IMG/VR virus record: IMGVR_UViG_3300030330_005471
Source of the DNA: a virus
Taxonomy: Duplodnaviria; Caudoviricetes
Direction: 5' to 3' (one strand)
Length of the DNA: 64,000 bases
In this document: one piece after another, positions 3,074 through 19,272 of the stretch
Numbering within the stretch: the stretch's first letter is position 1
How the letters are laid out: each line of letters starts with the position of its first letter
Made by a program: the position numbers and the translations under genes
Notes under the pieces: model-generated
Told to the model about the DNA's origin: nothing
Databases searched by the model: none
Seen by the model: only the letters and a program-made list of their open reading frames with translations

Positions 3074-3149
3074 TTAATTGACATTTCGATGCACAGGGCA
3101 TTAATTGACATTTCGATGGGGGATTTATGAAATTAATTGACATTTCGAT
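3074..3149 (+). repeat. 3 copies of 17-bp TTAATTGACATTTCGAT
   Basis: Exact copies at 3074, 3101, 3133; also at 19626, 19652, 20911. Confidence 0.95.
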
Positions 3150-3306
3150 AGGAGACTTGGTAACGCATTTGAGCCACGATCTTGGGATCGGACTCGTTAC
3201 CGAGGTGAGAATGGATGTGCCAACAGGAGCATACAAGTGTATTTGGTCTAAAGCACCGTTTATGGAGCTGTTTATCTGTGGTTCATCGCTGAAAATTCTC
3301 TCTTGA
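3127..3306 (+). CDS. GDLV-family small protein (59 aa, not in ORF track)
   Basis: MKLIDISIGDLVTH...GIGLVTEV. Confidence 0.7.
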   Translation: MKLIDISIGDLVTHLSHDLGIGLVTEVRMDVPTGAYKCIWSKAPFMELFICGSSLKILS

Positions 3307-3410
3307 ATTATAAGGAACACATGTGCGAGAGTTCCAAACGGACATTTTTTGTCCTTTACAATATTCCCACCTGTGATATATTATTAGTAACATTCAACAG
3401 GAGGTGAATA

Positions 3411-3599
3411 ATGTTTAAAGTTGGTGACTTAGTACGGTGGCATGAAAAACTGTACATTGTAACACTTATTGATCCTAGATTTATTAGAGTCATGAGTGTT
3501 CATGATGGAGAATCTACAAGTGCTTTTCCACCCAACTGGCTTACTAAAGTCGAAACGGACAATTTCTGTCCTTTACAATCTTCATCAGACTCATTATAA
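3411..3599 (+). CDS. GDLV-family small protein
   Basis: MFKVGDLVRW; GGAGG RBS. Confidence 0.75.
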   Translation: MFKVGDLVRWHEKLYIVTLIDPRFIRVMSVHDGESTSAFPPNWLTKVETDNFCPLQSSSDSL

Positions 3600-3711
3600 T
3601 AAATGTATAAAGCAACGATGATGAAAAAAATAAAGTTGGACATTTTTTGACCTTTACAAATTAACATAACCTGTTATATTATATCTGTCAAATTAATTTT
3701 AGGAGAAATCT

Positions 3712-3900
3712 ATGGAAATTGGTAAATTATATAAGGTAATACGCAACGGACACACCTATCCACAAGTAGGTGATGTGATAATGTATGTACAGGGTCTTTA
3801 TAGAGGAGACATGCGTAGTGTATATTTCACAGGTCTGAATCTGAGAACTATGAAACAACACCATTATAAATATGAGGATGTGGAGGTATTATGCGAATAG
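3712..3900 (+). CDS. GDLV-family small protein
   Basis: IGKLY..VGDVI..VEVLCE. Confidence 0.75.
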   Translation: MEIGKLYKVIRNGHTYPQVGDVIMYVQGLYRGDMRSVYFTGLNLRTMKQHHYKYEDVEVLCE

Positions 3901-4079
3901 GATCATTAGTAAAATGCAAGTGGCTTGACAATACCCATTTTGGTATAGTTGAGAAATGTACCTATGATAAAGGTTGCCGTTATTGGCGAGTCCATTGGTT
4001 TGGTGATGAATTCCAAAATGGAGTTTTTTGGCCACAAACACTTGAAGATGAAGAAGATTTGGAGGTAATATGCGAGTAG
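3891..4079 (+). CDS. GDLV-family small protein
   Basis: MRIGSLV...LEVICE. Confidence 0.8.
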   Translation: MRIGSLVKCKWLDNTHFGIVEKCTYDKGCRYWRVHWFGDEFQNGVFWPQTLEDEEDLEVICE

Positions 4080-4231
4080 GTTCATTGGTAAGAGCTAGGC
4101 ATTGGGACGAAAAGGCTATTGGCATTGTCGTGTCCATCAGAAACCAACAAATATGCAAAGTGTTGTTGGTACGCAATCACGACTACAGATTTGATCAACT
4201 TATAAGAGACTTGGAGATAATATGCGAGTAG
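4070..4231 (+). CDS. GDLV-family small protein (53 aa, not in ORF track)
   Basis: MRVGSLVRARHW...DLEIICE. Confidence 0.8.
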   Translation: MRVGSLVRARHWDEKAIGIVVSIRNQQICKVLLVRNHDYRFDQLIRDLEIICE

Positions 4232-4395
4232 GAACATTAGTGAAAGGTAAAAACATAAATTGGATAGGGGTCATTGTCAAGGTTAACGAAAGAGACTTGT
4301 CATTCTATAAGTCTCACACATACTTGGTGCAGTTTTGTACTGTGAAAAGGCAACAATGGTGTAATAGCCAAGAAATGGAGGTAATATGCGAATAG
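4222..4395 (+). CDS. GDLV-family small protein (57 aa, not in ORF track)
   Basis: MRVGTLVKGK...MEVICE. Confidence 0.8.
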   Translation: MRVGTLVKGKNINWIGVIVKVNERDLSFYKSHTYLVQFCTVKRQQWCNSQEMEVICE

Positions 4396-4625
4396 GAGAC
4401 TTAGTAATGATAGGCGATCAGACCCTCATTATCGTAGCAAACAAGTGGAGTGTCGCTCAGAACGAATGGTATTGGGCAATTGCTCCTGTGGACGATCCAA
4501 GTGATGGAACTTGGCTACCCGAAGATGTTGTTAGCCATGCGTGGAGAGATTATATATGGTGGACAAAAAATGTCCTCGACAATAATATAAGGAATGGTTA
4601 TATTGTAGATAACAAAGGAGAATAA
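4386..4625 (+). CDS. GDLV-family small protein
   Basis: MRIGDLV. Confidence 0.7.
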   Translation: MRIGDLVMIGDQTLIIVANKWSVAQNEWYWAIAPVDDPSDGTWLPEDVVSHAWRDYIWWTKNVLDNNIRNGYIVDNKGE

Positions 4626-4626
4626 C

Positions 4627-4815
4627 ATGGTATACAATACAGGAGACATAGTTGTTTTCATCAATGGATGGGGAGAACATGAACTTGGCATAGTCGTAAT
4701 TCAATATGATAACTATGACACAGAGGTTATGTTCGCAGATGGAATACAATCTTTGGTGGATGGTTGGGATGTAAAAGATGGACACTTAATCCCATTGGAG
4801 GAAACATGCAAGTAG
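4627..4815 (+). CDS. GDLV-family small protein
   Basis: TGDIVV...LEETCK. Confidence 0.75.
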   Translation: MVYNTGDIVVFINGWGEHELGIVVIQYDNYDTEVMFADGIQSLVDGWDVKDGHLIPLEETCK

Positions 4816-5000
4816 GAGACTTAGTAAGATTCAAAAGACATGTGGTAGACATGGTATGCGATGGAGAAACATGGATAGGTCTAGTGGTAGAGTCCTCTAT
4901 TGAACATCAATTCGAAGGAGTGGTGGCTATGATACAATGGATGTGCTACAATACCCCTACTCCCGAATATGTTGATGACTTGGAGGTATTATGCGAATAG
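4806..5000 (+). CDS. GDLV-family small protein
   Basis: MQVGDLVRF...LEVLCE. Confidence 0.8.
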   Translation: MQVGDLVRFKRHVVDMVCDGETWIGLVVESSIEHQFEGVVAMIQWMCYNTPTPEYVDDLEVLCE

Positions 5001-5164
5001 GAACATTAGTAGCGTCCTCTTATGAAATAACAGGGAGATTTCACATAGGTGTTATTATAGATGATGATGGAGATAAACATTGGTTGGTTCACTGGCTAAC
5101 AGGAATATTCACAGGCGACATAGAGTCGTATCATGAGAGCGATTTGGAGGTACTATGCGAGTAG
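4991..5164 (+). CDS. GDLV-family small protein (57 aa, not in ORF track)
   Basis: MRIGTLV...WLVHW...DLEVLCE. Confidence 0.8.
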   Translation: MRIGTLVASSYEITGRFHIGVIIDDDGDKHWLVHWLTGIFTGDIESYHESDLEVLCE

Positions 5165-5313
5165 GCAATTTAGTATCAATAAGACTCACAGATGATACAA
5201 AACAAATTGGTGTCATAGTGGAGGCAAAAGCAGAGCATTGCAAAGTCCATTGGACTACAGGCAATAGAGGTTGGTATAGAATAGATTATCTTACGGAGGT
5301 AGTATGCAAGTAG
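5155..5313 (+). CDS. GDLV-family small protein (52 aa, not in ORF track)
   Basis: MRVGNLV...CKVHW...LTEVVCK. Confidence 0.8.
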   Translation: MRVGNLVSIRLTDDTKQIGVIVEAKAEHCKVHWTTGNRGWYRIDYLTEVVCK

Positions 5314-5519
5314 GAGATTTAGTAAGGATAAAAAAGGCTTGGATAGATATGTACGAGGGCTACGAGGATACTGTAGGGCTAGTGGTGTATGCCGATAGTG
5401 GCTATGGGGGAGAAAGACCTGTGGGATTTCGGAGGATCAGAATTCTACATGAAAACATAAGAGGACAAATCTATTCCGTATTCGCTGAAGAGGTTTTGGA
5501 GGTAGTATGTTCAAAGTAG
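5304..5519 (+). CDS. GDLV-family small protein
   Basis: MQVGDLVRI...LEVVCSK. Confidence 0.8.
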   Translation: MQVGDLVRIKKAWIDMYEGYEDTVGLVVYADSGYGGERPVGFRRIRILHENIRGQIYSVFAEEVLEVVCSK

Positions 5520-5764
5520 GTGACTTGGTGAGAATAAAGAAAGAACATGTCGATCATGAGTACCTCAAAGAAATTGCTTGGGATTCGCATTGGACGAAAG
5601 CCCCTCTTCCACCACCCGAAAAAGATTGGCTTGGGTTGGTGATGGGTTACTTAACTGGTGACGATGGGCATGTCATAAAGGACATGATATATATACAATG
5701 GCTGTGGAGTGGTCGCACCGTTTTAGAATACACCGAGCATTTGGAGGTGGTATGCGACAACTAG
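5507..5764 (+). CDS. GDLV-family small protein
   Basis: MFKVGDLVRI...LEVVCDN. Confidence 0.8.
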   Translation: MFKVGDLVRIKKEHVDHEYLKEIAWDSHWTKAPLPPPEKDWLGLVMGYLTGDDGHVIKDMIYIQWLWSGRTVLEYTEHLEVVCDN

Positions 5765-5940
5765 TTTACAAGGTTGGAGATCTGATCATCCAAATAAAAA
5801 CAGGTAGGCTCGGACTAATAACCAAGGTGGACGAACTCCAACCTTGGGGTGTTGAGATTCAATGGACAGACAATGGTGTTAAACAAATTATGCACTGGAC
5901 AAATATCGTCCATGAAGGTCTTTATAGAAAACGGACATAA
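5752..5940 (+). CDS. GDLV-family small protein
   Basis: MRQLVYKVGDLII; stop lies inside the palindrome. Confidence 0.75.
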   Translation: MRQLVYKVGDLIIQIKTGRLGLITKVDELQPWGVEIQWTDNGVKQIMHWTNIVHEGLYRKRT

Positions 5941-6002
5941 TTTGTCCTTTACATATTTTGAGAATAGGGTATATTATAAACATCAAACAAGTGGAGGTCG
6001 AT

Positions 6003-6185
6003 ATGCGAGTAGGTGATTATGTAAGGTTCAACAACAACGAGGGTGACTTGGACGAGACACTTTGGAAGGTTGTTGGTTTCGAGGAAAGAGGTGGTCGTGC
6101 CTTTGTTCTCGTAAAGCACCCCACCGTAGGTGGTAGGTATTCATTCCCTAAAGATGGGGTTGTGGAGGTAATATGCAACAAATAA
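6003..6185 (+). CDS. GDLV-family small protein
   Basis: MRVGDYVRF...VEVICNK. Confidence 0.8.
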   Translation: MRVGDYVRFNNNEGDLDETLWKVVGFEERGGRAFVLVKHPTVGGRYSFPKDGVVEVICNK

Positions 6186-6385
6186 AGGGATCGTTAGTGA
6201 GAAAGGGATCGTTAGTCATGTGGAATGTAAAAGGCTCACTCGATTATGGCGAACTAGGTGTGGTTACATCAGTAAAAGAACTTACATTAAACGAAGAATT
6301 TGATGTTGTGTGGGCAGATGGTACTGTGACAGAGTACGATCATAGTCAAATACAACATCAAAATATAAAAGTGGTCAAATTTTGA
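6173..6385 (+). CDS. GDLV-family small protein
   Basis: KGSLVRKGSLV (15-bp internal duplication). Confidence 0.75.
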   Translation: MQQIKGSLVRKGSLVMWNVKGSLDYGELGVVTSVKELTLNEEFDVVWADGTVTEYDHSQIQHQNIKVVKF

Positions 6386-6441
6386 CCTTTACAAATTTAC
6401 AACAACATATTATATTACATTTACAACAACAGGAGGACAAT

Positions 6442-6747
6442 ATGTTTACATCAATATCACAGATAAAAAAAGCAAACCGAGAGAATGGCTACCATTTTTT
6501 CAGCAAAGACACGATGGGCTTTTTCAAGTCCAAGACCCACAGGGGTGTGTACGGAGGTCGTTATTTCATAACCTCTGAGCAGTTTGTGTCTACTAGTGGG
6601 GAGGTATACCCCCGAATGTATACAATACGCAAGGCTCACTCTGATGGGGCTATCGACACTGTGGATACCTTTCAAAAATTTAAACACTTAGATCAGGCTA
6701 GAGACTATATCAAGTTCGAGATCTTGGGAGAAGAACAATGGGATTAG
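6442..6747 (+). CDS. conserved phage hypothetical protein
   Basis: Own promoter and AGGAGG; HFFSKDTMGFF..S...YGGRYFITSE. Confidence 0.75.
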   Translation: MFTSISQIKKANRENGYHFFSKDTMGFFKSKTHRGVYGGRYFITSEQFVSTSGEVYPRMYTIRKAHSDGAIDTVDTFQKFKHLDQARDYIKFEILGEEQWD

Positions 6748-6884
6748 GGTCACTAGTAAAACATGAAGGTCTTTTACAAGAGATTGGCATTATCACAAAG
6801 ATCTGTGATGAATTGGCAACAGTTTTCTTCCCCGAAATGAATACGAAGGTACTGGTGTACCTTGATGACTTGGAGGCATTATGA
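6738..6884 (+). CDS. GDLV-family small protein (48 aa, not in ORF track)
   Basis: MGLGSLVKH...DLEAL. Confidence 0.7.
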   Translation: MGLGSLVKHEGLLQEIGIITKICDELATVFFPEMNTKVLVYLDDLEAL

Positions 6885-7084
6885 CAAAATTAAATATTAG
6901 GATAGGTTCTCTGTTACAATGGCAAGGAATAACGCAGTGTCGTGGAGAACTGGGAATAGTTATTGGGTTACTAAATGGCAATGGGTATGATGGCTTTGTT
7001 GTACATTGGAGTGTCGATGGTGAAATTGTGGACTATGTAAACGATGAAGCCATAAGTAACCTCATGGAGGTACTATGCAGGTAG
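6881..7084 (+). CDS. GDLV-family small protein
   Basis: IRIGSLL...MEVLCR. Confidence 0.75.
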   Translation: MTKLNIRIGSLLQWQGITQCRGELGIVIGLLNGNGYDGFVVHWSVDGEIVDYVNDEAISNLMEVLCR

Positions 7085-7248
7085 GTAGTTTAATAAAATG
7101 GACAGAGGCAGATGGACATATCTATTACGGGATTGTCACCAAGGTCGAAGGACAGAAAACTTTCATCCTGTGGGCTGATGGACTTGAAATTGACTACTGT
7201 TTGACAAGCGATATAATGGACAGCCAAATGGAGGTAGTATGCGAGTAG
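7075..7248 (+). CDS. GDLV-family small protein (57 aa, not in ORF track)
   Basis: MQVGSLIKW...MEVVCE. Confidence 0.8.
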   Translation: MQVGSLIKWTEADGHIYYGIVTKVEGQKTFILWADGLEIDYCLTSDIMDSQMEVVCE

Positions 7249-7439
7249 GCGATCTGATAGAATATACTGAAAATGACGAAACATTCATCGGTCTTGTGGT
7301 CAAGGTCGGTCTTGCCTCAAATATGGGAAAAACAGCTATCAAGATCCAATGGTGTTTTCATGGTGAAGATAAAGATTTCTTCGATGAAACATCGTGGCTA
7401 TGCACAGACGAGGTATGTTTGATCTCAAAACGGACATAA
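7239..7439 (+). CDS. GDLV-family small protein
   Basis: MRVGDLIEY. Confidence 0.8.
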   Translation: MRVGDLIEYTENDETFIGLVVKVGLASNMGKTAIKIQWCFHGEDKDFFDETSWLCTDEVCLISKRT

Positions 7440-7480
7440 TTTGTCCTTTACAATAATTCTCATTAGGTTATAATGTTTAT

Positions 7481-7645
7481 ATGAAGATAAAAGTTGGAAA
7501 GATAGTTAAATACAGAGACAATATGCCTCCGAATCTTTGGATAGTACTGACGAAACTCTATGGTGGTCTATGGGAGGTAGCCGAGGTACAGTGTCTCACT
7601 AACAGGAAAATTGCACACACAAAAGACATAAAGGTGGTAAAATGA
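7481..7645 (+). CDS. GDLV-family small protein, probably leaderless (54 aa)
   Basis: MKIKVGKIVKY; ATG 6 nt after TATAAT, no SD. Confidence 0.65.
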   Translation: MKIKVGKIVKYRDNMPPNLWIVLTKLYGGLWEVAEVQCLTNRKIAHTKDIKVVK

Positions 7646-7803
7646 AAACAGGTACATTGGTAAAAGTCTATCACAAAGGTGTTGGTGTTATAGTGGATAG
7701 AGGTATCCACCATAATGGCGATTGGAAATATTTAATATTATTTATCAGCGATGGATATAGAGCATGGTGGACAGAAAACCATTTGGAGGTAATATGCGAA
7801 TAG
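7642..7803 (+). CDS. GDLV-family small protein (53 aa, not in ORF track)
   Basis: MKTGTLVKV...HLEVICE. Confidence 0.75.
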   Translation: MKTGTLVKVYHKGVGVIVDRGIHHNGDWKYLILFISDGYRAWWTENHLEVICE

Positions 7804-7949
7804 GAACATTGGTAACAACAGGTGGTTGGCTAGGAATTGTCGTGGCAATATATGATGATGATATTACATCTATTATGTATGAGATTCACTTTGAGGATGG
7901 AGACAGAGATGTTTTCTATATAGATGACTTGGAGGTATTATGCGAGTAG
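7794..7949 (+). CDS. GDLV-family small protein
   Basis: MRIGTLV...DLEVLCE. Confidence 0.8.
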   Translation: MRIGTLVTTGGWLGIVVAIYDDDITSIMYEIHFEDGDRDVFYIDDLEVLCE

Positions 7950-8125
7950 GGACATTGGTTAAAAGTAAGTGGGCAACGAATATCATAGGTATTCTTTTGG
8001 AAAAACTCACCCTCGGTGATGATGTAGAGTGGGAAGAAGAGTGTTGGAAAGTCTATTGGATTGGCAATGGAGCAATCTTCGACCAAACTCATGAAGAAGA
8101 AGAGGACTTGGAGGTACTATGTTAG
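7940..8125 (+). CDS. GDLV-family small protein
   Basis: MRVGTLVKSKW...EEEDLEVLC; close paralog of 3891. Confidence 0.8.
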   Translation: MRVGTLVKSKWATNIIGILLEKLTLGDDVEWEEECWKVYWIGNGAIFDQTHEEEEDLEVLC

Positions 8126-10101: not shown

Positions 10102-10299
10102 ATGCAAATAAAAGTAGGAGACTTGGTTTATAGAAAGCAACATTCGTATTTAAACATAAGGCACAATGACGAAATATGGCTTGTGATCGGCAAGGCTCAG
10201 AGGTGTGGCTTGGGCGAATTCCACCCTTGGATACAGATAGAGAATATTCACAACGGTAATAGGATTTCTTGTAAAGAACCTATGCTGATGAAAATATAA
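10102..10299 (+). CDS. GDLV-family small protein
   Basis: KVGDLVY. Confidence 0.75.
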   Translation: MQIKVGDLVYRKQHSYLNIRHNDEIWLVIGKAQRCGLGEFHPWIQIENIHNGNRISCKEPMLMKI

Positions 10300-10375
10300 A
10301 ACGGACATTTTTTGTCCTTTACAAACTTACAACAACATATTATAATACTTATACATTCAACAACGGAGGTCAATT

Positions 10376-11179
10376 ATGGCTATTAACAACAGAACAGATA
10401 ACAACTATCGTTCTTCATCAAGGTGTACATTCTGTCAAGGTAATCATACCATCACAGGTTGCACAAAAGTATATGAAGAGGCTGAACAGGCAAAGAAATT
10501 ATCATTCTCTCAGAGAACATTTAAGCAACACTATGCTATGCAATACATAGAACTCAAAGAATCTCGCTCCAAGAAGAGAAAAACTGGCACTAAAAAGTGT
10601 GGGTACTGTGGTGGTGCAGACCATACTCGCAGAAATTGCAGTGTTATGGAGGCAGATAGAGAATTTCTCTTGAGAGCCAACCAACTATGGAGAAGAATGT
10701 ATGCCCATCTATCGGTAGAGTATGGCTTTGCTCCAGCTAGTCTTATCAAGTACCGAGAGAGAGATAGGTACAACTACAACACACAAAAGTACGAAACCAA
10801 TGAGAATCTGTACCTTATTGGCTCTGAATTGCCGACCAATCTATCTGTCTTTGCCTTATCGGGAGATCACTCTCTGAGGCAAGAGATCAAAATTCCAGCT
10901 GTAGGTCGTGATAGACCAATGAGTGTGAGAGATTTCGTACATGGAAAGCCATGTCGCAAAGCCCTAACAGGGCATGGTTATTGGTGGGGTGACGATGATA
11001 GTATCGAGATCGTAACCAGATCCACCTATCAGTATCCCGAAGAATGGTTCGAGGGTGAGTGTGATGACATAGATTATGTTCTTAAAAAGTGGAACAGAGA
11101 AAGGATTGAAAGAGATATTCTGTCTCCAATCCGTTCAGAACTCATTCCATTTGCACAAACAACAGGCTTTGATATATAA
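10376..11179 (+). CDS. protein with two CCHC zinc-knuckle-like motifs
   Basis: CTFCQGNHTITGC and CGYCGGADHTRRNC. Confidence 0.7.
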   Translation: MAINNRTDNNYRSSSRCTFCQGNHTITGCTKVYEEAEQAKKLSFSQRTFKQHYAMQYIELKESRSKKRKTGTKKCGYCGGADHTRRNCSVMEADREFLLRANQLWRRMYAHLSVEYGFAPASLIKYRERDRYNYNTQKYETNENLYLIGSELPTNLSVFALSGDHSLRQEIKIPAVGRDRPMSVRDFVHGKPCRKALTGHGYWWGDDDSIEIVTRSTYQYPEEWFEGECDDIDYVLKKWNRERIERDILSPIRSELIPFAQTTGFDI

Positions 11180-11247
11180 CGGACATAATTTGTCCTTTAC
11201 AAACTTACAACAACATATTATATTATAAACATAAACAAGGAGTCGCT

Positions 11248-11649
11248 ATGACAAACTTAACTAGAGCAAAGAACTACTCAGAATTCTGTGAAAACTGGAG
11301 AGATGGTGTATCATGTTATTACACTGGATGGAAAGCTCTCACATGTGATGGTACAAGTATCATGTTAAATTGTGGTAGTGGGAGAGATCCCATAATAATA
11401 GCAGAGAAAGTGGGTGAATACCTTGTGGTTTACAACCACAGACCAAAAGACTATGCGTCCGATCTCATGAAATATTGGACTTGGACTACGAGAAGGTGTC
11501 CAAATTTGGTGTATGCTACTCTTGGTAAACCAAAAGATGTCACACATGATAGTTGGTTATCCAATCAGTTTTATGATGGGCTATTGTCTGTGGCTACCCA
11601 CCTACTACACCCCGATCAGTCCATAGAAGAATTGATGGATGGGTCATGA
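11248..11649 (+). CDS. hypothetical protein (paralog of 11836)
   Basis: MTNLT...YN...KDYAS.L. Confidence 0.7.
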   Translation: MTNLTRAKNYSEFCENWRDGVSCYYTGWKALTCDGTSIMLNCGSGRDPIIIAEKVGEYLVVYNHRPKDYASDLMKYWTWTTRRCPNLVYATLGKPKDVTHDSWLSNQFYDGLLSVATHLLHPDQSIEELMDGS

Positions 11650-11843
11650 TTGGGGTCGGTGACTTGGTAACTTGGAGGATCAAAGAGTCCCTAGAGTGGG
11701 CAGACCCCCCACTCGCTGTGGTCACAGATTCTATCGAGGTTCCCGATGGAAAATGGTTTAGAGTAACATTTTTAACAGGCTACAGAGCCTCTCAGACATT
11801 CGAACTAAAAGAAAAACAGATAAGGAGAATAGACAATGACTAA
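11646..11843 (+). CDS. GDLV-family small protein
   Basis: GVGDLVTW. Confidence 0.75.
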   Translation: MIGVGDLVTWRIKESLEWADPPLAVVTDSIEVPDGKWFRVTFLTGYRASQTFELKEKQIRRIDND

Positions 11844-12249
11844 TTTAACACACTTTCAAGAGGTACTATTAGGTAACACAGTTCACATAGGAAGAACCGA
11901 CATAGCAAGGCTAGGGAATACATTATATCGTAGATGTATTTACGACTATGACAAGAAGAACAATAGAATACGAGGTTGGTTGCCCATACTCAAACTAGAA
12001 GAAGGGCAATGGGTAGGTTATAACTATTCGGGCAAGGACTTTGCCTCGTATCTTCTGAACAACCAGTGGCAACGATCTCACTATTGGTCAGAATTAAAGT
12101 ATGTACAAATTGGTCGTGGTATCGGCTGTAAGGGTACAAAGAGATTATGGTCTTGGCAATGCTCGTTTAAACGGTTCATGACCAAGATGATCAACCCAAC
12201 AATGGATATGCTGTTGCCCGAAGATACTGTCTTTGACCTAGTAGGATAA
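11836..12249 (+). CDS. hypothetical protein (paralog of 11248)
   Basis: MTNLT...YN...KDFAS.L. Confidence 0.7.
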   Translation: MTNLTHFQEVLLGNTVHIGRTDIARLGNTLYRRCIYDYDKKNNRIRGWLPILKLEEGQWVGYNYSGKDFASYLLNNQWQRSHYWSELKYVQIGRGIGCKGTKRLWSWQCSFKRFMTKMINPTMDMLLPEDTVFDLVG

Positions 12250-12321
12250 AAACGGACATTTTTTGTCCTTTACAATATCTCATAACTTGTTACAATATAG
12301 ATATAAAAGGAGGACAGAACA

Positions 12322-12468
12322 ATGTCTAAAAAGAAGAAACAACAACCATCTAAACGCAATCCTATCCAACAAATGCATATAGAACAGAACCGTAAGGCAG
12401 GTGTGCATACGGATAAGAAGAAAGAGCGAAACAAGAAAGCATGTCGAGGGAGACAATATGACAGATAG
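12322..12468 (+). CDS. small basic protein (48 aa, not in ORF track)
   Basis: Own promoter and AGGAGG; MSKKKKQQPSKRNP...RKAGVHTDKKK. Confidence 0.65.
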   Translation: MSKKKKQQPSKRNPIQQMHIEQNRKAGVHTDKKKERNKKACRGRQYDR

Positions 12469-12595
12469 AGAATTTATAAAAAAACTACTAGAGATGATGG
12501 AGATCAACGCACTTGCCGATTGGATCACCAACGATCCTTGGGACGAGTTCGAGTCATTGAGGGTCATGATCGAAGAACATTTAAAACGGACATAA
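12458..12595 (+). CDS. small hypothetical protein
   Basis: GGAG RBS; MTDREFIKKLL. Confidence 0.6.
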   Translation: MTDREFIKKLLEMMEINALADWITNDPWDEFESLRVMIEEHLKRT

Positions 12596-12657
12596 TTTGT
12601 CCTTTACAATATTTCATAACTTGTTATAATATAGACATAACCAACAAGGAGTACATC

Positions 12658-13896
12658 ATGTCAGATGAAACAACAACAACTAAACAGGAAGAGATCCTAG
12701 ACTTTGATCTCGATCTTCACACTTATCGCTTGCTACAGGCAGAACCATTCTTCTCAGCCCTATCTCGTAGGATACACAAGTCCTCCACCACAGCTATACC
12801 CACAGCAGGTGTGAAGATGAACGAGGGGAGTGGTAACTTTGAGATGATCTACAACCCAAATTTCTTTGCCAAACTTTCGGACAAGGAAAAGCTCGGTGTC
12901 CTTATGCACGAGTTCTACCACATCATCTTTGAGCATGTCACAGGTCGGCTACCTCCCGAAGGTATGTCCAAGATGTGGAACATTGCCACAGACTTGGCGA
13001 TCAACTCTCACTTGATGGACTCACTCCCCGAACAAGGTCTTTTCCCAACAAGAGGTCGGTTTGAGGACTACCCTGTGGGTATGTCGGCTGAATGGTATTA
13101 CTCCAAGTTGCAACAGGATAAAGAGAATGGCGAAGGTGCTTTCGATCCTAAACATCAACAAGGCGAAGGTGGTGGCGAAGGTCAAGGTGGGGACAATATG
13201 CCCGACTCCCTAGACGATCACAGTGGTTGGTCTGATGTAGACCAAGACACACGACAAATGGCTCAAGAACGAATGAGACAAGCTGTTGAGGACGCTGTGA
13301 AAGAGGTACAATCTCGTGGTCAAGGTTGGGGTAATGTGTCTAGTGGTATGAGAGAACGAATCATTGATATGATCACACCAAAGGTTGACTGGCGAAAAGT
13401 TCTTAGATACTTTATCAAGACCTCCCAAAGACAGAACAAGAGGTCTACGGTACGGAGAGTCAACCCTCGCTATCCCTACATTCATGCAGGGAAGAAGGTC
13501 AACAGAACAGCAAAAATTGCGATCTCTATTGACCAATCGGGTTCCGTATCAGATGATATGCTCAGTGCCTTCTTCTCAGAACTCAATGGGCTTGCTCAGC
13601 AAGTCGAGTTCACTGTGATCCCTTTCGATACCCAAGTAGACGAGTCTAAAGTCTATGTATGGAAGAAAGGTCAGAGGAGACAAGTCGAACGAGTCCTTTG
13701 TGGTGGTACATGTTTCAATGCACCAACCAAGTTTGTGAATGACAATGGTGGCTTTGATGGTCATATTATACTCACAGATATGGAGGCTCCAAAGCCTGTG
13801 GCTAGTAAGTGTCAGAGAATATGGTTCACCACAGAACAGTGTGCCAAGAACCCATACTTTCAGACCAATGAAAAAGTTATCGGGATCAGTATGTAA
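12658..13896 (+). CDS. metallopeptidase (HExxH)-VWA domain protein, DUF2201-like
   Basis: HEFYH, WNIATDLAIN, IDQSGS MIDAS, GGT, ILTD. Confidence 0.85.
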   Translation: MSDETTTTKQEEILDFDLDLHTYRLLQAEPFFSALSRRIHKSSTTAIPTAGVKMNEGSGNFEMIYNPNFFAKLSDKEKLGVLMHEFYHIIFEHVTGRLPPEGMSKMWNIATDLAINSHLMDSLPEQGLFPTRGRFEDYPVGMSAEWYYSKLQQDKENGEGAFDPKHQQGEGGGEGQGGDNMPDSLDDHSGWSDVDQDTRQMAQERMRQAVEDAVKEVQSRGQGWGNVSSGMRERIIDMITPKVDWRKVLRYFIKTSQRQNKRSTVRRVNPRYPYIHAGKKVNRTAKIAISIDQSGSVSDDMLSAFFSELNGLAQQVEFTVIPFDTQVDESKVYVWKKGQRRQVERVLCGGTCFNAPTKFVNDNGGFDGHIILTDMEAPKPVASKCQRIWFTTEQCAKNPYFQTNEKVIGISM

Positions 13897-13929
13897 GATC
13901 CCGATAGAGTGACACCTCCTTATGAGGTG
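13878..13929 (+). other. tandem RNA hairpins at 3' end of VWA gene
   Basis: TATCGGGATC/GATCCCGATA 10-bp IR spanning the stop codon, then CACCTC/GAGGTG. Confidence 0.6.
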
Positions 13930-14033
13930 GGGTATGGGTGGGCAATAAGTTTTTTTAAAACGGACATAATCTGTCCTTTACAATAATTACTGAACAGGGT
14001 ATATTACTATTATACAGACTGAGGGATTCGATA

Positions 14034-14231
14034 ATGAAATTCAAAACAGTGGTTATCATTGAAACAGATGACGAGGGCTTTCTAACCCTTAAGGCTCTGT
14101 TACCCAATGATGGGATTGTTTGGACAAGAATTGTCGGGCAGAACAAGGTCGCAGTGAGACTTAAAGACGATATAGACATAGAATGGGTTGAGAAACAACT
14201 AAACTCATTACATAGAACACTAAACATCTGA
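14034..14231 (+). CDS. hypothetical protein
   Basis: Promoter and GAGG. Confidence 0.65.
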   Translation: MKFKTVVIIETDDEGFLTLKALLPNDGIVWTRIVGQNKVAVRLKDDIDIEWVEKQLNSLHRTLNI

Positions 14232-14236
14232 GGTGC

Positions 14237-14521
14237 ATGATGGCACAAGAATGGAAATACAGAGAACACAAGGGAAAGCAAGGAAGGTTCCGAATAGGCG
14301 ATCTCGTACAACTCTCAGCCTATGGTAAGAGTACTGATCAGAACACCAACCCACACTTTGATGGAAACGAACTTGGTCTTATCATTGAGATAGGAGGAAA
14401 CACTAGATTCGGTGGTGATATTCAAAAATACCCCATTGTAGTGCAGTGGATCAATGTCCCAAAGGGAACCAATGTTGCCAAGAGGTTCTTCTTCAGAGAG
14501 TTAAAACTAAAACGGACATAA
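14237..14521 (+). CDS. GDLV-family protein
   Basis: FRIGDLVQL...GLIIEI...VQW. Confidence 0.75.
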   Translation: MMAQEWKYREHKGKQGRFRIGDLVQLSAYGKSTDQNTNPHFDGNELGLIIEIGGNTRFGGDIQKYPIVVQWINVPKGTNVAKRFFFRELKLKRT

Positions 14522-14587
14522 TTTGTCCTTTACAATATTCAACCAACATATTATATTATAAACATCTTCAACAACAAGGAGTCTATC

Positions 14588-14815
14588 ATGGACACTAAAG
14601 ACAACAACAACATCACGATACAACTATCAGTATCAGATGAACTATTAAACAAGGTTCTCCGAGCCTTAGTAACACCACCCCCAAGCCCTATGGGTGGAGG
14701 TATGCCTATCCCTATGAGTTTGTTATCGGGTTTACTAGGTCAAGCCCCACCATCTGACGACGAAAAGTCTGAGGAAAAGCCAACCGTAGGTTTCAAAATT
14801 AAAGGAGCGAAATAA
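14588..14815 (+). CDS. Pro/Gly-rich hypothetical protein
   Basis: Promoter and AGGAG. Confidence 0.65.
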   Translation: MDTKDNNNITIQLSVSDELLNKVLRALVTPPPSPMGGGMPIPMSLLSGLLGQAPPSDDEKSEEKPTVGFKIKGAK

Positions 14816-15039
14816 TGACTATCATATCAACAAAGCAACTGAGCAATGGTTTAGGTCAAACTGTCATTACAACACTTGTGGTGCATAATGGAAACTACTT
14901 TGTAGTATCCGAGAATCCTAGAGAGACTCTGATATTCCCTAGCAACAGCAAAGGGGAACACAAGTTCCTTGAGGTAGGATCGGGTTTCGATACAGCAGAT
15001 TGCCTCAACCAAATCGAAAACGGACAAATTATGTCCTAG
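14815..15039 (+). CDS. hypothetical protein
   Basis: AGGAG RBS. Confidence 0.65.
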   Translation: MTIISTKQLSNGLGQTVITTLVVHNGNYFVVSENPRETLIFPSNSKGEHKFLEVGSGFDTADCLNQIENGQIMS

Positions 15040-15113
15040 ACTTTATTTTCAAACCTAGTTATATTATAAACATCATTCAAACGATAACTTAACAACAAAC
15101 AATGGAGACTATT

Positions 15114-16169
15114 ATGTCTATTGATTACAAAACCCTATTCACCATCCTTCCCCATGTCTTTGAGGCGAGATTCCCTGTCCTCTTACGAGGTCGGCATGGT
15201 ATCGGTAAGTCCACAGTAGTATACCAACAAGCCAAAGCAATGGGTTTGCCTGTGGTAGAAAGACGAGCCTCACAGATGACCGAAGGTGATCTACTTGGTC
15301 TACCCAAGATCGATGGTAATGTCACAGCTTGGCTTGCACCCGAATGGCTTGACAAGGCTTGCAAAGAACCAGTTATCTTGTTCCTTGACGAGGTTGATCG
15401 TGCTACCCTAGAGGTACGACAGGGTATCTTCGAATTGTGTGACTCTCGTAAGATCGCAGGTCACAAACTCCATCCCGACACACTTATCTTTGCTTGTGTC
15501 AATGGTGGTAAGCATGGTGCAGAGTATCAAGTCAACGAGTTCGATCCAGCCGAACTTGATCGCTACACTGTCTTTGATGTAGAGCCTACCGTAGAGGACT
15601 GGCTTGACTGGGCTAAAGGCAATGTCATTGACGAGATATGGGATTTCATCAACCACAATCACCAACATCTCGAACACAAGGATACCTTCGAGCCTAACAA
15701 GATCTATCCTTCAAGACGATCTTGGGAAAGACTCTCAGACGCATTGCAAAGTGTCGGTGAGGTAAAGCATAGTCCTACCCTATACCACCTTGCTCATTCT
15801 TTTATCGGCTTTGAGGGTGCTATGGCTCTGAATGACTATATCAAGAACTACTCTAAAGTTGTGACTCCCGAACAAATTCTTGACGAGGGTAAGGTAGACT
15901 TGACTGAAAAGTTCAAGATCAACGACCATAACAGTCTTATTGAAAAGTTCAAGGCTAAAGAGTGCTTTGATACGGAGTTATCTGACAGTCAGTTACAGAA
16001 TCTCGCTGAATACTTTGTGACACTCCCATCTGAGATCGCTATGACCTTGTGGCAAGCGATGGGATCGGGCAAGGAGGCAACCAAGAATGTCGCTAGGTTG
16101 CATGGTTTACAGACTAAAACTGGCTCTGTGCAAGACTTTATCGTCAGTATCCTAACAGCAGGTCAATAG
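15114..16169 (+). CDS. MoxR-like AAA+ ATPase
   Basis: Walker A GRHGIGKS, Walker B LFLDEVDRA, DPAELDRY, PSRRSW. Confidence 0.9.
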   Translation: MSIDYKTLFTILPHVFEARFPVLLRGRHGIGKSTVVYQQAKAMGLPVVERRASQMTEGDLLGLPKIDGNVTAWLAPEWLDKACKEPVILFLDEVDRATLEVRQGIFELCDSRKIAGHKLHPDTLIFACVNGGKHGAEYQVNEFDPAELDRYTVFDVEPTVEDWLDWAKGNVIDEIWDFINHNHQHLEHKDTFEPNKIYPSRRSWERLSDALQSVGEVKHSPTLYHLAHSFIGFEGAMALNDYIKNYSKVVTPEQILDEGKVDLTEKFKINDHNSLIEKFKAKECFDTELSDSQLQNLAEYFVTLPSEIAMTLWQAMGSGKEATKNVARLHGLQTKTGSVQDFIVSILTAGQ

Positions 16170-16178
16170 ACCTACTGA

Positions 16179-16211
16179 TCCTCCACCATGACAGTGTAGT
16201 CTGGTGGAGGA
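16179..16211 (+). other. RNA hairpin downstream of AAA gene
   Basis: TCCTCCACCA/TGGTGGAGGA 10-bp IR, no U-tract. Confidence 0.6.
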
Positions 16212-16293
16212 ACCTACTCGGACATTTTTTGTCCTTTACAAATTATTCTGAACCTATTATATTATAAACATCAACAACACAAGAGGTGATCAG

Positions 16294-16485
16294 ATGGAAC
16301 AAGATAATATACCCGATGTAGGAGATTTAGTCACAGTATTTAGATCAATCCCTAACGCAATAAACCGTATGGGATTGGTCATAAAGGTTGAGTACAGTAG
16401 TCAAGTACCCATATTCACTGTACAATTTCCAGATGGAACTGTTCGCACCTTGGGAAGATTGTGGATCGAAAAGATTAAAAAATAA
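16294..16485 (+). CDS. GDLV-family small protein
   Basis: VGDLVTV...GLVIKV. Confidence 0.75.
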   Translation: MEQDNIPDVGDLVTVFRSIPNAINRMGLVIKVEYSSQVPIFTVQFPDGTVRTLGRLWIEKIKK

Positions 16486-16563
16486 AAACGGACATTTTTT
16501 GTCCTTTACAAATTCTTTTAAACCTATTATATTACTAGTATAACCAACAACAAGGAGTTATCC

Positions 16564-16821
16564 ATGAGAATACGAAACAACCAAGGTGCTACAATGACCC
16601 CCAAGTGTGCGAACCTTATCCGAGACTTGAACAAACTAGTTCGTGAAGGTCTTTCCATTGAAGAGGCAGAGGAATACCTTAAACTTGAAAATTGGCGATG
16701 TGATCAAGGCTATGCACCTCACAAAGGCGATTGGAAAAAGGCTAAAAAGCGAATCCTCCAAGTAGCAGAGTTCAGAAAGACAGGTGCTACTACCCTCAAG
16801 GGTGGGTGGGGTAAGCGATGA
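16564..16821 (+). CDS. hypothetical protein
   Basis: Promoter and AGGAG. Confidence 0.65.
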   Translation: MRIRNNQGATMTPKCANLIRDLNKLVREGLSIEEAEEYLKLENWRCDQGYAPHKGDWKKAKKRILQVAEFRKTGATTLKGGWGKR

Positions 16822-17006
16822 ATATCGGAGACATAATGCTATACAACAATCGAGAAAACCCTCGCCTAAACGATACCTTAGTTCTCATAATGGGAAACAA
16901 TGGTCGTATCCACAGGAAAGTAATGTTCTTGAAAGATGGATTTATAACAGAGAACTGTTGGGTAGGTTACTTATTACCAATAGGAGATAACCATGTCAGT
17001 AGGTGA
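16818..17006 (+). CDS. GDLV-family small protein
   Basis: MNIGDIM. Confidence 0.65.
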   Translation: MNIGDIMLYNNRENPRLNDTLVLIMGNNGRIHRKVMFLKDGFITENCWVGYLLPIGDNHVSR

Positions 17007-17169
17007 AATTTATTTGTGGAATGATGGAGTGTTGGATCACTTGGTCATGATCGTACCATCGGGGAACGGAGTAGGGAATTGGGTTGGGTGGTGTTCAGTT
17101 CAGTTCATCAGTGGAGGACGAAAATTTCAAGTCCAACACTACCAACTTAAACCTTTGGAGAACAGATGA
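16993..17169 (+). CDS. GDLV-like small protein (58 aa, not in ORF track)
   Basis: AGGAG; MSVGEIYLW. Confidence 0.65.
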   Translation: MSVGEIYLWNDGVLDHLVMIVPSGNGVGNWVGWCSVQFISGGRKFQVQHYQLKPLENR

Positions 17170-17375
17170 AAGAAGAATTCAAGATAGGCGATCTCGTTGA
17201 GGTCAAGATTCTCAGAGATCATCCCGAAATTGGAATAGTGGTAGGCATTGAAGATCCCGAAAGAACCAACAATGGTCTATATGTATTGATCGAGGGTTGG
17301 ACTCCTAGTGGAGGCATGGTTAAGGCTTGGCTACCATTGAACAGAGTAAAAAAAATAAAAACGGACAAAATTTGA
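17166..17375 (+). CDS. GDLV-family small protein
   Basis: FKIGDLVEV...GIVVGI. Confidence 0.8.
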   Translation: MKEEFKIGDLVEVKILRDHPEIGIVVGIEDPERTNNGLYVLIEGWTPSGGMVKAWLPLNRVKKIKTDKI

Positions 17376-17435
17376 CCTTTACAATTTAAACAGACCTTGA
17401 TATAATACTAATACATTCAACAACAGGAGAACATT

Positions 17436-17639
17436 ATGTTAAAAAGAAGTAGGTACTCACAACAATATAAAACCATTCAACAGGCAAGGGCTTGGGCTTA
17501 TGAACAAGATTTTAATGATGTATGGTATCTTATCCACAACAGAGAGAAGAACAGATACCAGTTGGTAAATGATGGTCGGCTTTACTACCTACAACATTGT
17601 TGGGATCTTGACTTTGAAATTATTGAAACTTGGGAATAG
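17436..17639 (+). CDS. hypothetical protein
   Basis: Promoter and AGGAG. Confidence 0.65.
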   Translation: MLKRSRYSQQYKTIQQARAWAYEQDFNDVWYLIHNREKNRYQLVNDGRLYYLQHCWDLDFEIIETWE

Positions 17640-17641
17640 AT

Positions 17642-17842
17642 ATGAAGGTAGGTGATTTGGTGTTGCTCGACATAGGATATGGCAACCCATACGGTATGAA
17701 AAAGCCACCCGAATTAGCGATCATCAGAGGTATCAACACAGACTATAGCCCAACTCGATACTACCTAACAGTGGTGTCAACAGGAAAACGCAAGTGGGCA
17801 ACTCAAAATTTCATCGAACCAGTGGAGGAAACATGCAAGTAG
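17642..17842 (+). CDS. GDLV-family small protein
   Basis: MKVGDLV...VEETCK. Confidence 0.75.
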   Translation: MKVGDLVLLDIGYGNPYGMKKPPELAIIRGINTDYSPTRYYLTVVSTGKRKWATQNFIEPVEETCK

Positions 17843-18012
17843 GAGATTTAGTGTGGTCATTGTCAGATGACATCAAAGGCTCGAAGAAACGATTGGCGAT
17901 CATCCTCGCCTTAGACTATGACCATTGGAATCCATATTTCATCCAGTTAGTCGCTTGTGGGAGACAGGGAAAAACAGCAAGAAAGTATCTCGAACCATTG
18001 GACAGAGACTAA
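17833..18012 (+). CDS. GDLV-family small protein
   Basis: MQVGDLVW. Confidence 0.75.
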   Translation: MQVGDLVWSLSDDIKGSKKRLAIILALDYDHWNPYFIQLVACGRQGKTARKYLEPLDRD

Positions 18013-18092
18013 ACGGACAAAAAATGTCCTTTACAAATCCCAACCACCCTGTTATAATATAAACATCATTCAAACGAACCAAGGAGTTCAAC

Positions 18093-18410: not shown

Positions 18411-18469
18411 TTTGTCCTTTACATTCTGAGACAACAGGTTATATTACTGATATGAACAACGGAGAAAAC

Positions 18470-19148: not shown

Positions 19149-19272
19149 ATGGTCATTAAGGGCTTGTATGCGTACCTTGGAGTATATGTCCGTATTCGTT
19201 TGTACTCGCCTGTATATACTGTATCAAAGTCACCCTACGAGTGTAACTATCACCCCGAAAAGGAAAACGACA

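What the first reader, a model, noticed from the sequence alone, without database searches (positions are those of the whole stretch)
3127..8125. Self-chaining array of diversified KOW/SH3-like mini-proteins joined by a dual-frame repeat
Seen: 23 genes of 48-85 aa in about 5 kb (~40 in the window) share an N-terminal (V/I)G(D/T/S)L(V/I) and a central G(I/L)(V/I)(V/I). Many also share V.W and a C-terminal LEV(I/L/V)C(E/K)*, while the interiors are highly divergent. Seventeen junctions here (plus 17824) are one ~22-bp element, TTGGAGGTANTATGCGA(A/G)TAGG. It encodes the last strand and stop of gene n and also the SD, ATG and first strand of gene n+1, with invariant 9-nt spacing. Known: in small SH3/KOW barrels the first and last strands pair. 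Inference: crossover between any two junctions adds, deletes or swaps whole, correctly folded, translationally coupled genes. This would be a repeat-spacer cassette array whose spacers are protein scaffolds with variable loops, i.e. an expandable binder library for host takeover or anti-defence.
Basis: partly seen in the sequence, partly recalled or inferred. Interest (0 to 1): 0.92.

Follow-up and report, generated by a model that had tools for sequence, protein, structure and literature searches.

The report
Swappable SH3-like mini-gene chain in phage
An uncultured ~183-kb marine T4-type phage carries over 30 tiny genes for one unnamed barrel-shaped protein, about 24 of them chained by a short joint that both neighbours read, and relatives gain, lose and swap whole genes at that joint; what the proteins do is unknown.

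Summary
Window 3127-8125 (+) carries 25 back-to-back small genes, 24 of one family. An iterative HMM finds 32 members in the window, all on the + strand.

- **Junction:** twelve junctions match the 22-bp element within 3 mismatches (0 expected). Five more keep its 5' half, GGAGG exactly 9 nt before the ATG.
- **Fold:** a canonical member folds confidently (pLDDT 89) as a five-strand SH3-like barrel. Best matches are Spt5/NusG KOW, PsaE and Tudor. No Pfam or PHROG family fits.
- **Why the junction is conserved:** mostly double coding (LEVxC[E/K]-stop over M[R/Q][V/I]G) plus the Shine-Dalgarno site. Two synonymous preferences remain unexplained.
- **Recombination:** Homology blocks between related arrays end almost only at junctions. 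A 99.9%-identical Tara variant differs from the window by exactly one cassette, with the crossover inside 11 shared bases at 7081-7091.
- **Limits:** turnover is equally high at other boundary types, including PeSL-like promoter/stem-loop repeats. Orthologues evolve under purifying selection (dN/dS about 0.24).

The 'binder library' function is untested. This is a coding-sequence variant of PeSL-type modular shuffling in T4-type phages. The scan met the same family and junction earlier on other DNA (e1-5659238, e1-5652510, e1-5667113). I found no paper describing it.

The parts
3127..3306 (+). g1, 59-aa divergent family member behind its own promoter-like element
3411..3599 (+). g2, 62-aa divergent family member (MFKVGDLV...)
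3712..5940 (+). Chain 1: twelve mini-genes g3-g14 (52-85 aa) with no intergenic DNA. Eight 10-nt overlaps, two 13-nt overlaps and one 1-nt gap.
   Evidence: promoter-like site 3653-3682 upstream and palindrome at 5930 downstream
6003..6385 (+). Chain 2: g15 and g16 (60 and 70 aa), 13-nt overlap
6442..6747 (+). g17, 101-aa non-family gene (Pfam DUF7447) embedded in the array. It overlaps g18 by 10 nt.
6738..7439 (+). Chain 3: g18-g21 (48, 67, 57 and 66 aa)
7064..7091 (+). Polymorphic g19/g20 junction. Close variants carry one extra 58-60-aa cassette here. The window's junction is a hybrid, with the crossover inside GTAGGTAGTTT (7081-7091).
   Evidence: several assemblies end here
7481..8125 (+). 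Chain 4: g22-g25 (54, 53, 51 and 61 aa). In a 97.8%-identical lineage, extra cassettes sit at junction 7929-7950 and at 8105-8112.
3880..3901 (+). First of the 12 canonical 22-bp dual-coding junctions. The others start at 4059, 4211, 4375, 4795, 4980, 5144, 5293, 7064, 7228, 7783 and 7929.
   Evidence: 12 matches, 0 expected
3337..3392 (+). PeSL-like composite element (GGACA-N5-TGTCC palindrome, then TTTACA-N16-18-TATAWT). Further copies inside or beside the array start at 3554, 3635, 5930, 6370, 7429 and 8206. There are 23 copies up to 21855.
   Evidence: (D1-D4)
17630..18012 (+). Outlying pair of family genes (listed ORFs 17630-17842 and 17794-18012; reading the second from its ATG at 17833) joined by the same 10-nt-overlap junction (element starting at 17824)
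   Evidence: D9
10102..20023 (+). Dispersed family members at 10102-10299, 11646-11843, 14237-14521, 16294-16485, 16993-17169, 17166-17375, 18637-18903, 18855-19148 and 19781-20023. One more lies at 31909-32151.
   Evidence: (E 1e-7 to 4e-14, except 10102, which is below threshold)

Best explanation
This is a lineage-specific expansion of one uncatalogued family of ~50-85-aa SH3-like (KOW/PsaE/Tudor-type) beta-barrel proteins. There are at least 32 copies. It lies in the early, hyperplastic region of an uncultured ~183-kb marine T4-type myovirus (near-identical record: MK892766.1, GOV_bin_1807).

Expression (inferred): sigma-70-like promoters inside PeSL-like stem-loop/promoter repeats drive polycistronic chains of up to 12 mini-genes. 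Within a chain, each gene's last strand and stop (LEVxC[E/K]-TAG) overlap the next gene's start and first strand (M[R/Q][V/I]G) by 10 nt. A GGAGG sits inside the L-E-V codons, 9 nt before the ATG. Translation is therefore presumably coupled by termination and reinitiation.

Conservation of the junction (shown): it follows mainly from this double coding plus the SD.

Evolution (shown): because every gene boundary carries the same ~20 bases, recombination or replication slippage between junctions adds, removes or replaces whole intact genes. It works as a coding-sequence counterpart of the PeSL regulatory cassettes that shuffle genes in T4-type phages.

Function (inferred, weak): each cassette is a separately conserved small barrel with its own surface. 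It probably binds a distinct host or phage macromolecule early in infection.
For: Family and fold:
- Alignment A1 and the iterative HMM, 32 hits all on the + strand.
- AF2 pLDDT 89, five strands.
- VIA-align Z 8.4 (rmsd 1.8 A over 55 residues) to Spt5 KOW, Z 8.1 to PsaE, Z 7.6 to NusG KOW and Tudor. Foldseek gives TM 0.6-0.7 to CAP-Gly, Tudor, PsaE and YorP.

Real genes:
- Median dN/dS is 0.24 over 113 orthologue pairs, none above 1.
- 623 representative clusters in 1.84 billion proteins have E<=0.001.

Lineage:
- Relatives G001-G003 carry 20-23 copies each.
- G002 (187 kb, complete) has a T4-type gp23 (PF07068, E 2e-61). Its PhoH2 is 65% identical to the window's.

Junction:
- In 96 unique 10-nt-overlap junctions from 17 contigs, GAG 92:1 over GAA, TGC 94:2 over TGT and CGA/CAA are forced by the SD or the other frame.

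Shuffling:
- Orthogroup order differs between contigs. L012/L019 read 2-0-1-4-5, L013/L017 read 2-14-1-4-5, L010 reads 2-10-23-0-1-4, and the window reads 2-0-15-25.
- 91 of 106 homology-block starts lie at -20..+10 of a family ATG, and 93 of 116 stops at 0..+30. About 19-20 are expected in each case.
- L050 is 99.9% identical to the window on both sides of one extra 167-bp cassette at 7065-7099. The hybrid junction is seen in alignment A3.
- A 97.8%-identical lineage has two more cassette indels, at 7929-7950 and 8105-8112.
- A tandem paralogue pair occurs in L006 and L040.

Early promoters: 23 palindrome + TTTACA-N17-TATAWT repeats, matching the published PeSL description (PMC4122927).
Against: - Function is not tested at all. 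There is no named family, no homologue in cultured phages, and pI values are mixed (47% below 6, 28% above 8).
- Junctions are not shown to be hotter than other boundaries. Any viable whole-gene indel in a gap-free chain must end near a gene boundary, so selection could give part of the pattern.
- One mosaic breakpoint lies inside a cassette, so recombination is not confined to junctions.
- The window's own T4 affiliation is inferred from a relative.
- Transcription timing and translational coupling are inferred from sequence only.
- The divergent member g7 gave no confident model (pLDDT 49).
Confidence: 0.72

Rival explanations
1. Constraint only. The junction is conserved purely because it encodes the last strand, stop, SD, start and first strand. 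Recombination there is an incidental by-product of ordinary homologous recombination or slippage. It has no special role and no higher rate than at any other gene boundary.
For: All but two positions of the 22-mer are accounted for by the two reading frames and the SD. Follower turnover is as high at -4 overlaps (59%) and at intergenic gaps (82-87%) as at -10 junctions (67%). Only one cassette indel is seen among the near-identical (at least 99.8%) genomes. An intragenic mosaic exists.
Against: Crossovers map inside the shared junction bases. New adjacencies keep a perfect 10-nt overlap. Two synonymous sites free of the other frame are still biased: Val GTA 76% against 31% in gene interiors, and TTG:CTG 67:5 against about 3:1. 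This hints at homogenisation or another DNA or RNA-level constraint.
Confidence: 0.25
2. Function alternative. The mini-proteins are nucleic-acid-binding regulators or chaperones (KOW/LSm-like), for example modulators of host or phage transcription elongation or RNA stability, rather than a protein-binder or anti-defence library.
For: The best structural matches are the KOW domains of Spt5 and NusG. T4 itself has early SH3/LSm-like proteins (GoF, MotB.1, Frd.2), one of which affects mRNA stability when mutated (PMC12152347). 28% of members are basic.
Against: There is no sequence match to Pfam KOW or to T4 GoF or MotB.1 (hhalign probability under 1%). Nearly half of the members are acidic, with net charge down to -10. 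SH3-like barrels bind proteins as often as nucleic acids.
Confidence: 0.3
3. The chain is read as polyproteins by programmed frameshifting at the overlaps, making tandem multi-barrel proteins rather than separate mini-proteins.
For: The next frame is offset by one base within a 10-nt overlap. The representative search also returned a few long proteins with 3-9 matching stretches, some with SH3-repeat Pfam hits.
Against: There is no slippery heptamer in the junction. Each gene has its own ATG and an SD at fixed spacing. The long hits are unrelated multidomain proteins such as CHAP/SLH or RING-finger proteins.
Confidence: 0.03
4. The ORFs are spurious and the region is a non-coding DNA repeat array.
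For: The ORFs are short, have no database family, and sit beside a regular repeat.
Against: dN/dS is 0.24. A confident barrel model was obtained. All 32 HMM hits are on one strand. There are hundreds of distinct homologues. Rfam finds nothing.
Confidence: 0.01

Closest known systems
PeSLs (promoter-early stem-loops) of T4-type phages (Arbiol et al. 2010, PMC2839356; Comeau et al. 2014, PMC4122927)
   Same: Both are short conserved sequences at the boundaries of small non-essential early ORFs in hyperplastic regions of T4-type phages. In both, insertions, deletions and replacements between relatives have their end points at these sequences. The window also holds 23 true PeSL-like elements (stem-loop + TTTACA-N17-TATAWT).
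   Different: The 22-bp junction is not intergenic or regulatory DNA. It lies inside two overlapping coding sequences and has no promoter or stem-loop. It joins paralogues of one family rather than unrelated ORFans.
[quoted passage not shown] 2025, PMC12152347)
   Same: Both are small, early proteins of T4-type phages of unknown function with a five-strand SH3-like barrel. The T4 proteins were shown to be non-essential in the laboratory; this has not been tested for the window's family.
   Different: No detectable sequence relationship. The T4 proteins are ~120-140 aa with extra C-terminal domains. They occur as three dispersed copies, not as arrays with a shared junction.
Lineage-specific expansions of small domains in large phages, e.g. 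~35 zinc-ribbon copies in Bacillus phage G (Iyer et al. 2021, PMC7824862)
   Same: Tens of paralogues of one tiny domain in a single large phage genome, function unknown.
   Different: A different fold. As far as that paper describes it, there is no overlapping dual-coding junction and no cassette-level exchange.
KOW domains of NusG/Spt5 and other SH3-like barrels (PsaE, Tudor, NdhS)
   Same: Same size and five-strand barrel topology. These are the best structural matches (Z 7.5-8.4).
   Different: No Pfam KOW match. The proteins are stand-alone rather than domains of larger factors. Z about 8 is within the range that common small-barrel arrangements reach.
Integron gene-cassette arrays
   Same: A row of single-gene cassettes separated by a recurring short sequence at which cassettes are gained and lost.
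   Different: The junction shows no palindromic symmetry like that of attC sites, and no integrase was seen among the ORFs of the window that were scanned (about 20 of the 41 of 150 aa or more). Exchange appears to use general homology or slippage. The cassettes are paralogues and are co-translated.

Membership tests
SH3-like small beta-barrel fold (KOW/Tudor/PsaE class) | ~60-residue barrel of five antiparallel strands | tested here: met
   AF2 pLDDT 89 with strands 6-9, 17-26, 29-36, 49-53 and 57-61. VIA-align Z 8.4 to Spt5 KOW, 8.1 to PsaE, 7.6 to NusG and Tudor. Only one canonical member was modelled; divergent g7 gave pLDDT 49.
KOW domain family (Pfam PF00467) | Sequence match to the KOW profile | tested here: not met
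   No PF00467 hit for the 10 canonical members scanned at E<=1; the other 14 members of A1 were not scanned against Pfam. The profile search against PDB sequences gives only E 0.18 to eS4.
T4 LSm-like early protein family (GoF/MotB.1/Frd.2) | Detectable homology of the N-terminal barrel to GoF or MotB.1 | tested here: not met
   hhalign of A1 against T4 GoF and MotB.1 gives probability 0.5% and 0.3%. The A1 profile finds nothing in the T4 genome.
PeSL mobile regulatory cassettes (applied to the 22-bp junction) | Composite of stem-loop plus early sigma-70-type promoter in intergenic DNA | tested here: not met
   The junction lies wholly inside two coding frames and contains an SD and ATG but no hexamer pair or hairpin.
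PeSL mobile regulatory cassettes (applied to the 22-bp junction) | End points of indels and replacements between related phages fall in the element | tested here: met
   (83% and 80% of block ends).
PeSL mobile regulatory cassettes (applied to the intergenic GGACA-N5-TGTCC/TTTACA repeats) | Stem-loop followed by TTTACW-N17-TAYWAT-type promoter, repeated in a hyperplastic region of a T4-type phage | tested here: met
   23 copies and promoter scan hits. Published consensus in PMC4122927. T4-type capsid gene in relative G002. 35-40% of the homology-block ends that are not near a listed family gene start fall on these elements, against 13% expected.
Integron cassette array | attC-type imperfect inverted repeat between cassettes and an IntI integrase nearby | tested here: not met
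   The junction sequence has no dyad symmetry (read directly). No integrase appears among the ORFs of 150 aa or more that were scanned (about 20 of 41). The whole genome was not searched.

The most novel reading that the evidence does not exclude
The dual-coding junction is itself a selected, self-homogenising recombination module. It would be a protein-coding equivalent of PeSL or attC sites that keeps every SH3-like mini-gene exchangeable, in frame and co-translated. The phage lineage would then share an ocean-wide pool of plug-in barrel cassettes, each aimed at a different host factor or defence system.
Probability: 0.3. Interest if true: 0.8.

Novelty: new variant of a known kind. Interest (0 to 1): 0.62.

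Why it matters
Phage genomes are full of tiny early genes of unknown function, and how they turn over is poorly understood. This case is unusually clean. One fold is present in over 30 copies, with a boundary sequence that both neighbours translate. There is also direct population evidence, a one-cassette difference between 99.9%-identical genomes, that whole genes move at that boundary.

If the proteins are host-factor or defence binders, the arrays are a natural library of minimal scaffolds with a built-in way of exchanging members. The finding also extends the PeSL idea of modular shuffling from regulatory DNA to coding DNA. Finally, it warns assemblers: several metagenome contigs break exactly at the polymorphic junction.

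Tried and rejected
- **Cultured phages:** megablast of the array and tblastn of a member against 50,697 phage records gave no match. The A1 profile found nothing in HTVC008M, S-PM2, P-SSM2, Flavobacterium phage immuto or T4, although the same search found 20-23 copies in G001-G003.
- **Named families:** Pfam and PHROGs gave only sub-threshold hits such as HAS-barrel, MIB_HERC2 and phrog_11898. The ESM Atlas feature search gave only borderline leads (DsrB, DfrB, UBE2O SH3-C, KOW) at 0.84-0.90.
- **Own genome:** no whole genome is held for the window.
- **Second fold:** the AF2 model of divergent member g7 had low confidence.
- **RNA:** Rfam found nothing in 2500-22000, and there are no tRNAs.
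- **Near-clonal variants:** exact-protein look-ups for g2, g5 and g12 found only contigs with the window's order, apart from the g19|g20 cassette that reappears in L060 and L058. These contigs are at least 99.8% identical to the window (L058 99.3%), so identical order there says little.
- **Considered and rejected:** a DGR-like hypermutation library (orthologues are under purifying selection); programmed frameshifting (no slippery site); CRISPR-like or integron-like machinery (nothing of that kind seen).

Full report
**1. What is there**

ORF listing and a start-by-start table show 25 consecutive + strand genes between 3127 and 8125, followed by a 26th at 8119-8280. Twenty-four of the 25 align as one family (A1). 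Gly4 is invariant, and the shared skeleton is MxVGxLV ... GxV ... VxW ... LEVxCx. The exception is a 101-aa DUF7447 gene at 6442-6747.

An HMM built from ten obvious members and iterated on all six-frame ORFs of the window converges on 32 members at E<0.01. All are on the + strand. The outliers include 11646, 14237, 16294, 16993, 17166, 17630/17794 (the second read from its ATG at 17833), 18637, 18855, 19781 and 31909.

The 22-bp element has 12 matches with at most 3 mismatches, against none in 100 shuffles. Five further junctions keep the 5' half, with GGAGG 9 nt before the ATG, but use overlaps of 13, 4 or 7 nt.

**2. The proteins**

- No Pfam or PHROG family reaches significance.
- AlphaFold2 with A1 gives a confident five-strand barrel for 3891-4076 (pLDDT 89, pTM 0.74).
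- Foldseek against the PDB finds CAP-Gly, Tudor, PsaE, eS4, HspQ and YorP at TM 0.6-0.7 but with E>0.03.
- The exhaustive VIA-align search ranks an Spt5 KOW domain first (Z 8.4, rmsd 1.8 A over 55 residues). PsaE (8.1), NusG KOW, Tudor and NdhS follow. This is the SH3-like small-barrel class. By the tool's own calibration, Z about 8 shows the fold but not homology.
- BFVD and ESM Atlas matches are unnamed proteins of uncultured viruses.
- A divergent member (g7, 4386-4622) did not give a confident model (pLDDT 49), so a common fold is shown for canonical members only.
- Orthologue pairs from different contigs give a median dN/dS of 0.24 (n=113, none above 1). These are real, individually maintained genes.
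- Charges are heterogeneous: 47% have pI below 6 and 28% above 8.

**3. The phage**

- No whole genome is held for the window.
- Window proteins occur on contigs of up to 183 kb.
- IMG/VR relatives found through the junction pattern hold 5-17 members per fetched locus and 20-23 per long contig.
- One relative, complete at 187 kb, has a T4-type major capsid gene (PF07068, E 2e-61) and a PhoH2 65% identical to the window's. The lineage is therefore T4-like. For the window itself this is an inference.
- The family is absent from T4, HTVC008M, S-PM2, P-SSM2 and Flavobacterium phage immuto and from tblastn of all cultured phages.
- It has 623 representative clusters in the 1.84-billion-protein library. 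Of the top short representatives, 76% start M[RQK][VI]G and 50% end C[EK].

**4. Regulatory setting**

Region 3337-21855 holds 23 copies of a composite repeat: a GGACA-N5-TGTCC palindrome directly followed by TTTACA-N16-18-TATAWT. This is the architecture of the promoter-early stem-loops (PeSLs) of T4-type phages, whose published T4/PST consensus is TTTACW-N17-TAYWAT (PMC4122927).

These elements cut the array into chains: g3-g14, g15-g16, g17-g21 and g22-g25. I infer early polycistronic transcription by host RNA polymerase, and translational coupling across the overlaps. Neither is shown.

**5. Why the junction is conserved**

In 96 unique 10-nt-overlap junctions from 17 contigs, the consensus is TTGGAGGTAnTATGC(G/A)A(G/A)TAGG.

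- Glu is GAG 92:1 (interior usage 42%) because it is the SD core.
- Cys is TGC 94:2 (interior 30%) because TGT would put TGA or TAA in the downstream frame.
- Codon 2 of the next gene is CGA or CAA because it shares bases with the upstream Glu or Lys.
- TAG is made from the xTA of Val/Ile3 and the G of the invariant Gly4.

The C-terminal 'C-E' is thus largely a by-product of the overlap with M-R-V-G.

Two synonymous preferences are not forced by the other frame or by anti-SD pairing. Val is GTA in 76% (31% in interiors), and TTG:CTG is 67:5 (about 3:1 in interiors). These may reflect spacer preference or homogenisation.

A second junction class, LEV(I/V)NESR-stop over MKVG with a 14-nt overlap, also exists.

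**6. Test of the recombination idea**

(a) *Gene order.* Clustering 274 family proteins from 24 loci at 55% identity or more gives 46 orthogroups. Their order differs between contigs:
- L012 and L019: 2-0-1-4-5
- L013 and L017: 2-14-1-4-5
- L010: 2-10-23-0-1-4
- L009: 5-14-10-x-0
- the window: 2-0-15-25

Meanwhile, 3 kb upstream of the array stays collinear at about 74% identity.

(b) *Block ends.* In all-against-all blastn of the arrays, 91 of 106 homology-block starts lie at -20..+10 of a family ATG, and 93 of 116 stops at 0..+30. About 19-20 are expected in each case. Nominal p is about 1e-50, but the events are not independent. Almost none lie in gene interiors. Of the ends that are not near a family ATG on my list, 35-40% lie on PeSL-like palindromes, against 13% expected.

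(c) *The one-cassette variant.* Most contigs recovered by exact-protein look-ups are at least 99.8% identical to the window and have the same order. Tara scaffold_553 (L050) is the exception. It is 99.9% identical on both sides yet has one extra 167-bp cassette (60 aa) between g19 and g20. The two alignments overlap on window 7065-7099.

Alignment A3 shows that the window's junction is a hybrid. Its left part, including ATGCAG, is that of the cassette's own start. Its right part, AATAAAATGG..., is that of g20. The switch lies inside the 11 invariant bases GTAGGTAGTTT.

In both lineages that keep the cassette, 'MQ' belongs to the cassette, and g20 starts MK or MR. The window form is therefore most simply a precise one-cassette deletion.

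(d) *More indels.* A 97.8%-identical lineage (L054, L056) has this cassette plus a 56-aa cassette at junction 7929-7950 and a 55-aa cassette at 8105-8112. The 55-aa one is an orthologue of orthogroup 1 of other contigs, at 64% identity.

(e) *Assembly breaks.* MK892766.1, L051 and L053 end within about 80 nt downstream of the polymorphic junction (window 7091-7167), and L052 begins about 260 nt upstream of it, at window 6807. This is as expected for an assembly-graph bubble.

(f) *Tandem duplication.* Adjacent paralogues about 70% identical occur in L006 and L040. In L040 they share a ~45-nt identical tract that suggests gene conversion.

**7. Limits**

- Follower turnover is similar at -10 (67%), -4 (59%) and -13/14 (73%) junctions, and higher at gaps (82-87%). 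The junction is therefore a sufficient site of exchange, not a demonstrably privileged one.
- In a gap-free chain, only boundary-to-boundary events leave intact genes, so selection contributes to the pattern.
- The L050 and L054 copies of the extra cassette are identical for 108 nt and then about 75% identical. This is an intragenic mosaic, so ordinary allelic recombination also acts.
- Homologous recombination cannot be told apart from replication slippage between direct repeats.

**8. Comparison and novelty**

- The closest concept is PeSL-mediated modular shuffling (PMC2839356, PMC4122927). The setting and the outcome are the same, but here the shared sequence is coding and dual-frame, and the shuffled units are paralogues.
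[quoted passage not shown] They show no sequence relationship to this family.
- A ~35-copy zinc-ribbon expansion in phage G (PMC7824862) is a precedent for the scale.
- I found no paper describing this family or junction.
- Earlier notes of this scan describe the same family and junction in other genomes, with the same PeSL comparison. I read them after reaching my conclusions. They agree but are not independent proof.

**9. Verdict**

The fold and the cassette-exchange part of the interpretation are supported. The 'binder library for takeover or anti-defence' is plausible but untested. I class this as a new variant of a known kind, of moderate to high interest.

Noticed in passing
window 3337-21855: 23 copies of a PeSL-like composite: a GGACA-N5-TGTCC palindrome immediately followed by TTTACA-N16-18-TATAWT. 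They head most short operons of the early region. Some homology-block ends between relatives fall on them.
   Followed up: partly
window 3064-3150, 19616-19669, 20901-20928: Six copies of TTAATTGACATTTCGATG (three in tandem just upstream of g1). Possibly an operator or another promoter class; unexplained.
   Followed up: no
L050 10352-10377; many representatives: A second junction class in the same family: LEV(I/V)NESR-stop overlapping MKVG by 14 nt.
   Followed up: partly
L050 10195-10377 vs L054 1042-1218: The extra cassette is 100% identical for its first 108 nt and about 75% identical afterwards between two lineages. This is an intragenic recombination mosaic.
   Followed up: partly
L040 3923-4260 (also L006 9057-9388): Adjacent tandem paralogues about 70% identical. 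In L040 they share a ~45-nt perfectly identical tract, suggesting gene conversion between neighbours.
   Followed up: partly
window about 6807-7167: MK892766.1, L051 and L053 end within about 80 nt downstream of the polymorphic g19/g20 junction, and L052 begins about 260 nt upstream of it. This is probably an assembly-graph bubble caused by the cassette presence/absence polymorphism.
   Followed up: partly
window 2334-2687: A 117-aa ORF starts MQKLKIGTLIKDNDKLGVVTKV, which looks like a family-type N-terminal barrel fused to a Pro/Ser-rich basic tail. It is below the HMM threshold (E 0.42).
   Followed up: no
window 41973-53594: Glycosyltransferases and a NeuB-type synthase with a cupin domain. 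This is a phage sugar or nonulosonic-acid pathway, already noted by other readers of this genome.
   Followed up: no
window 12520-16169: A DUF2201 (VWA/metallopeptidase-like) gene and a MoxR/AAA_5 ATPase lie in the same early region.
   Followed up: no
window 26939-29440: An 833-aa ORF with a weak protein-kinase domain match (Pfam Pkinase, E 7e-6, below the cut-off).
   Followed up: no
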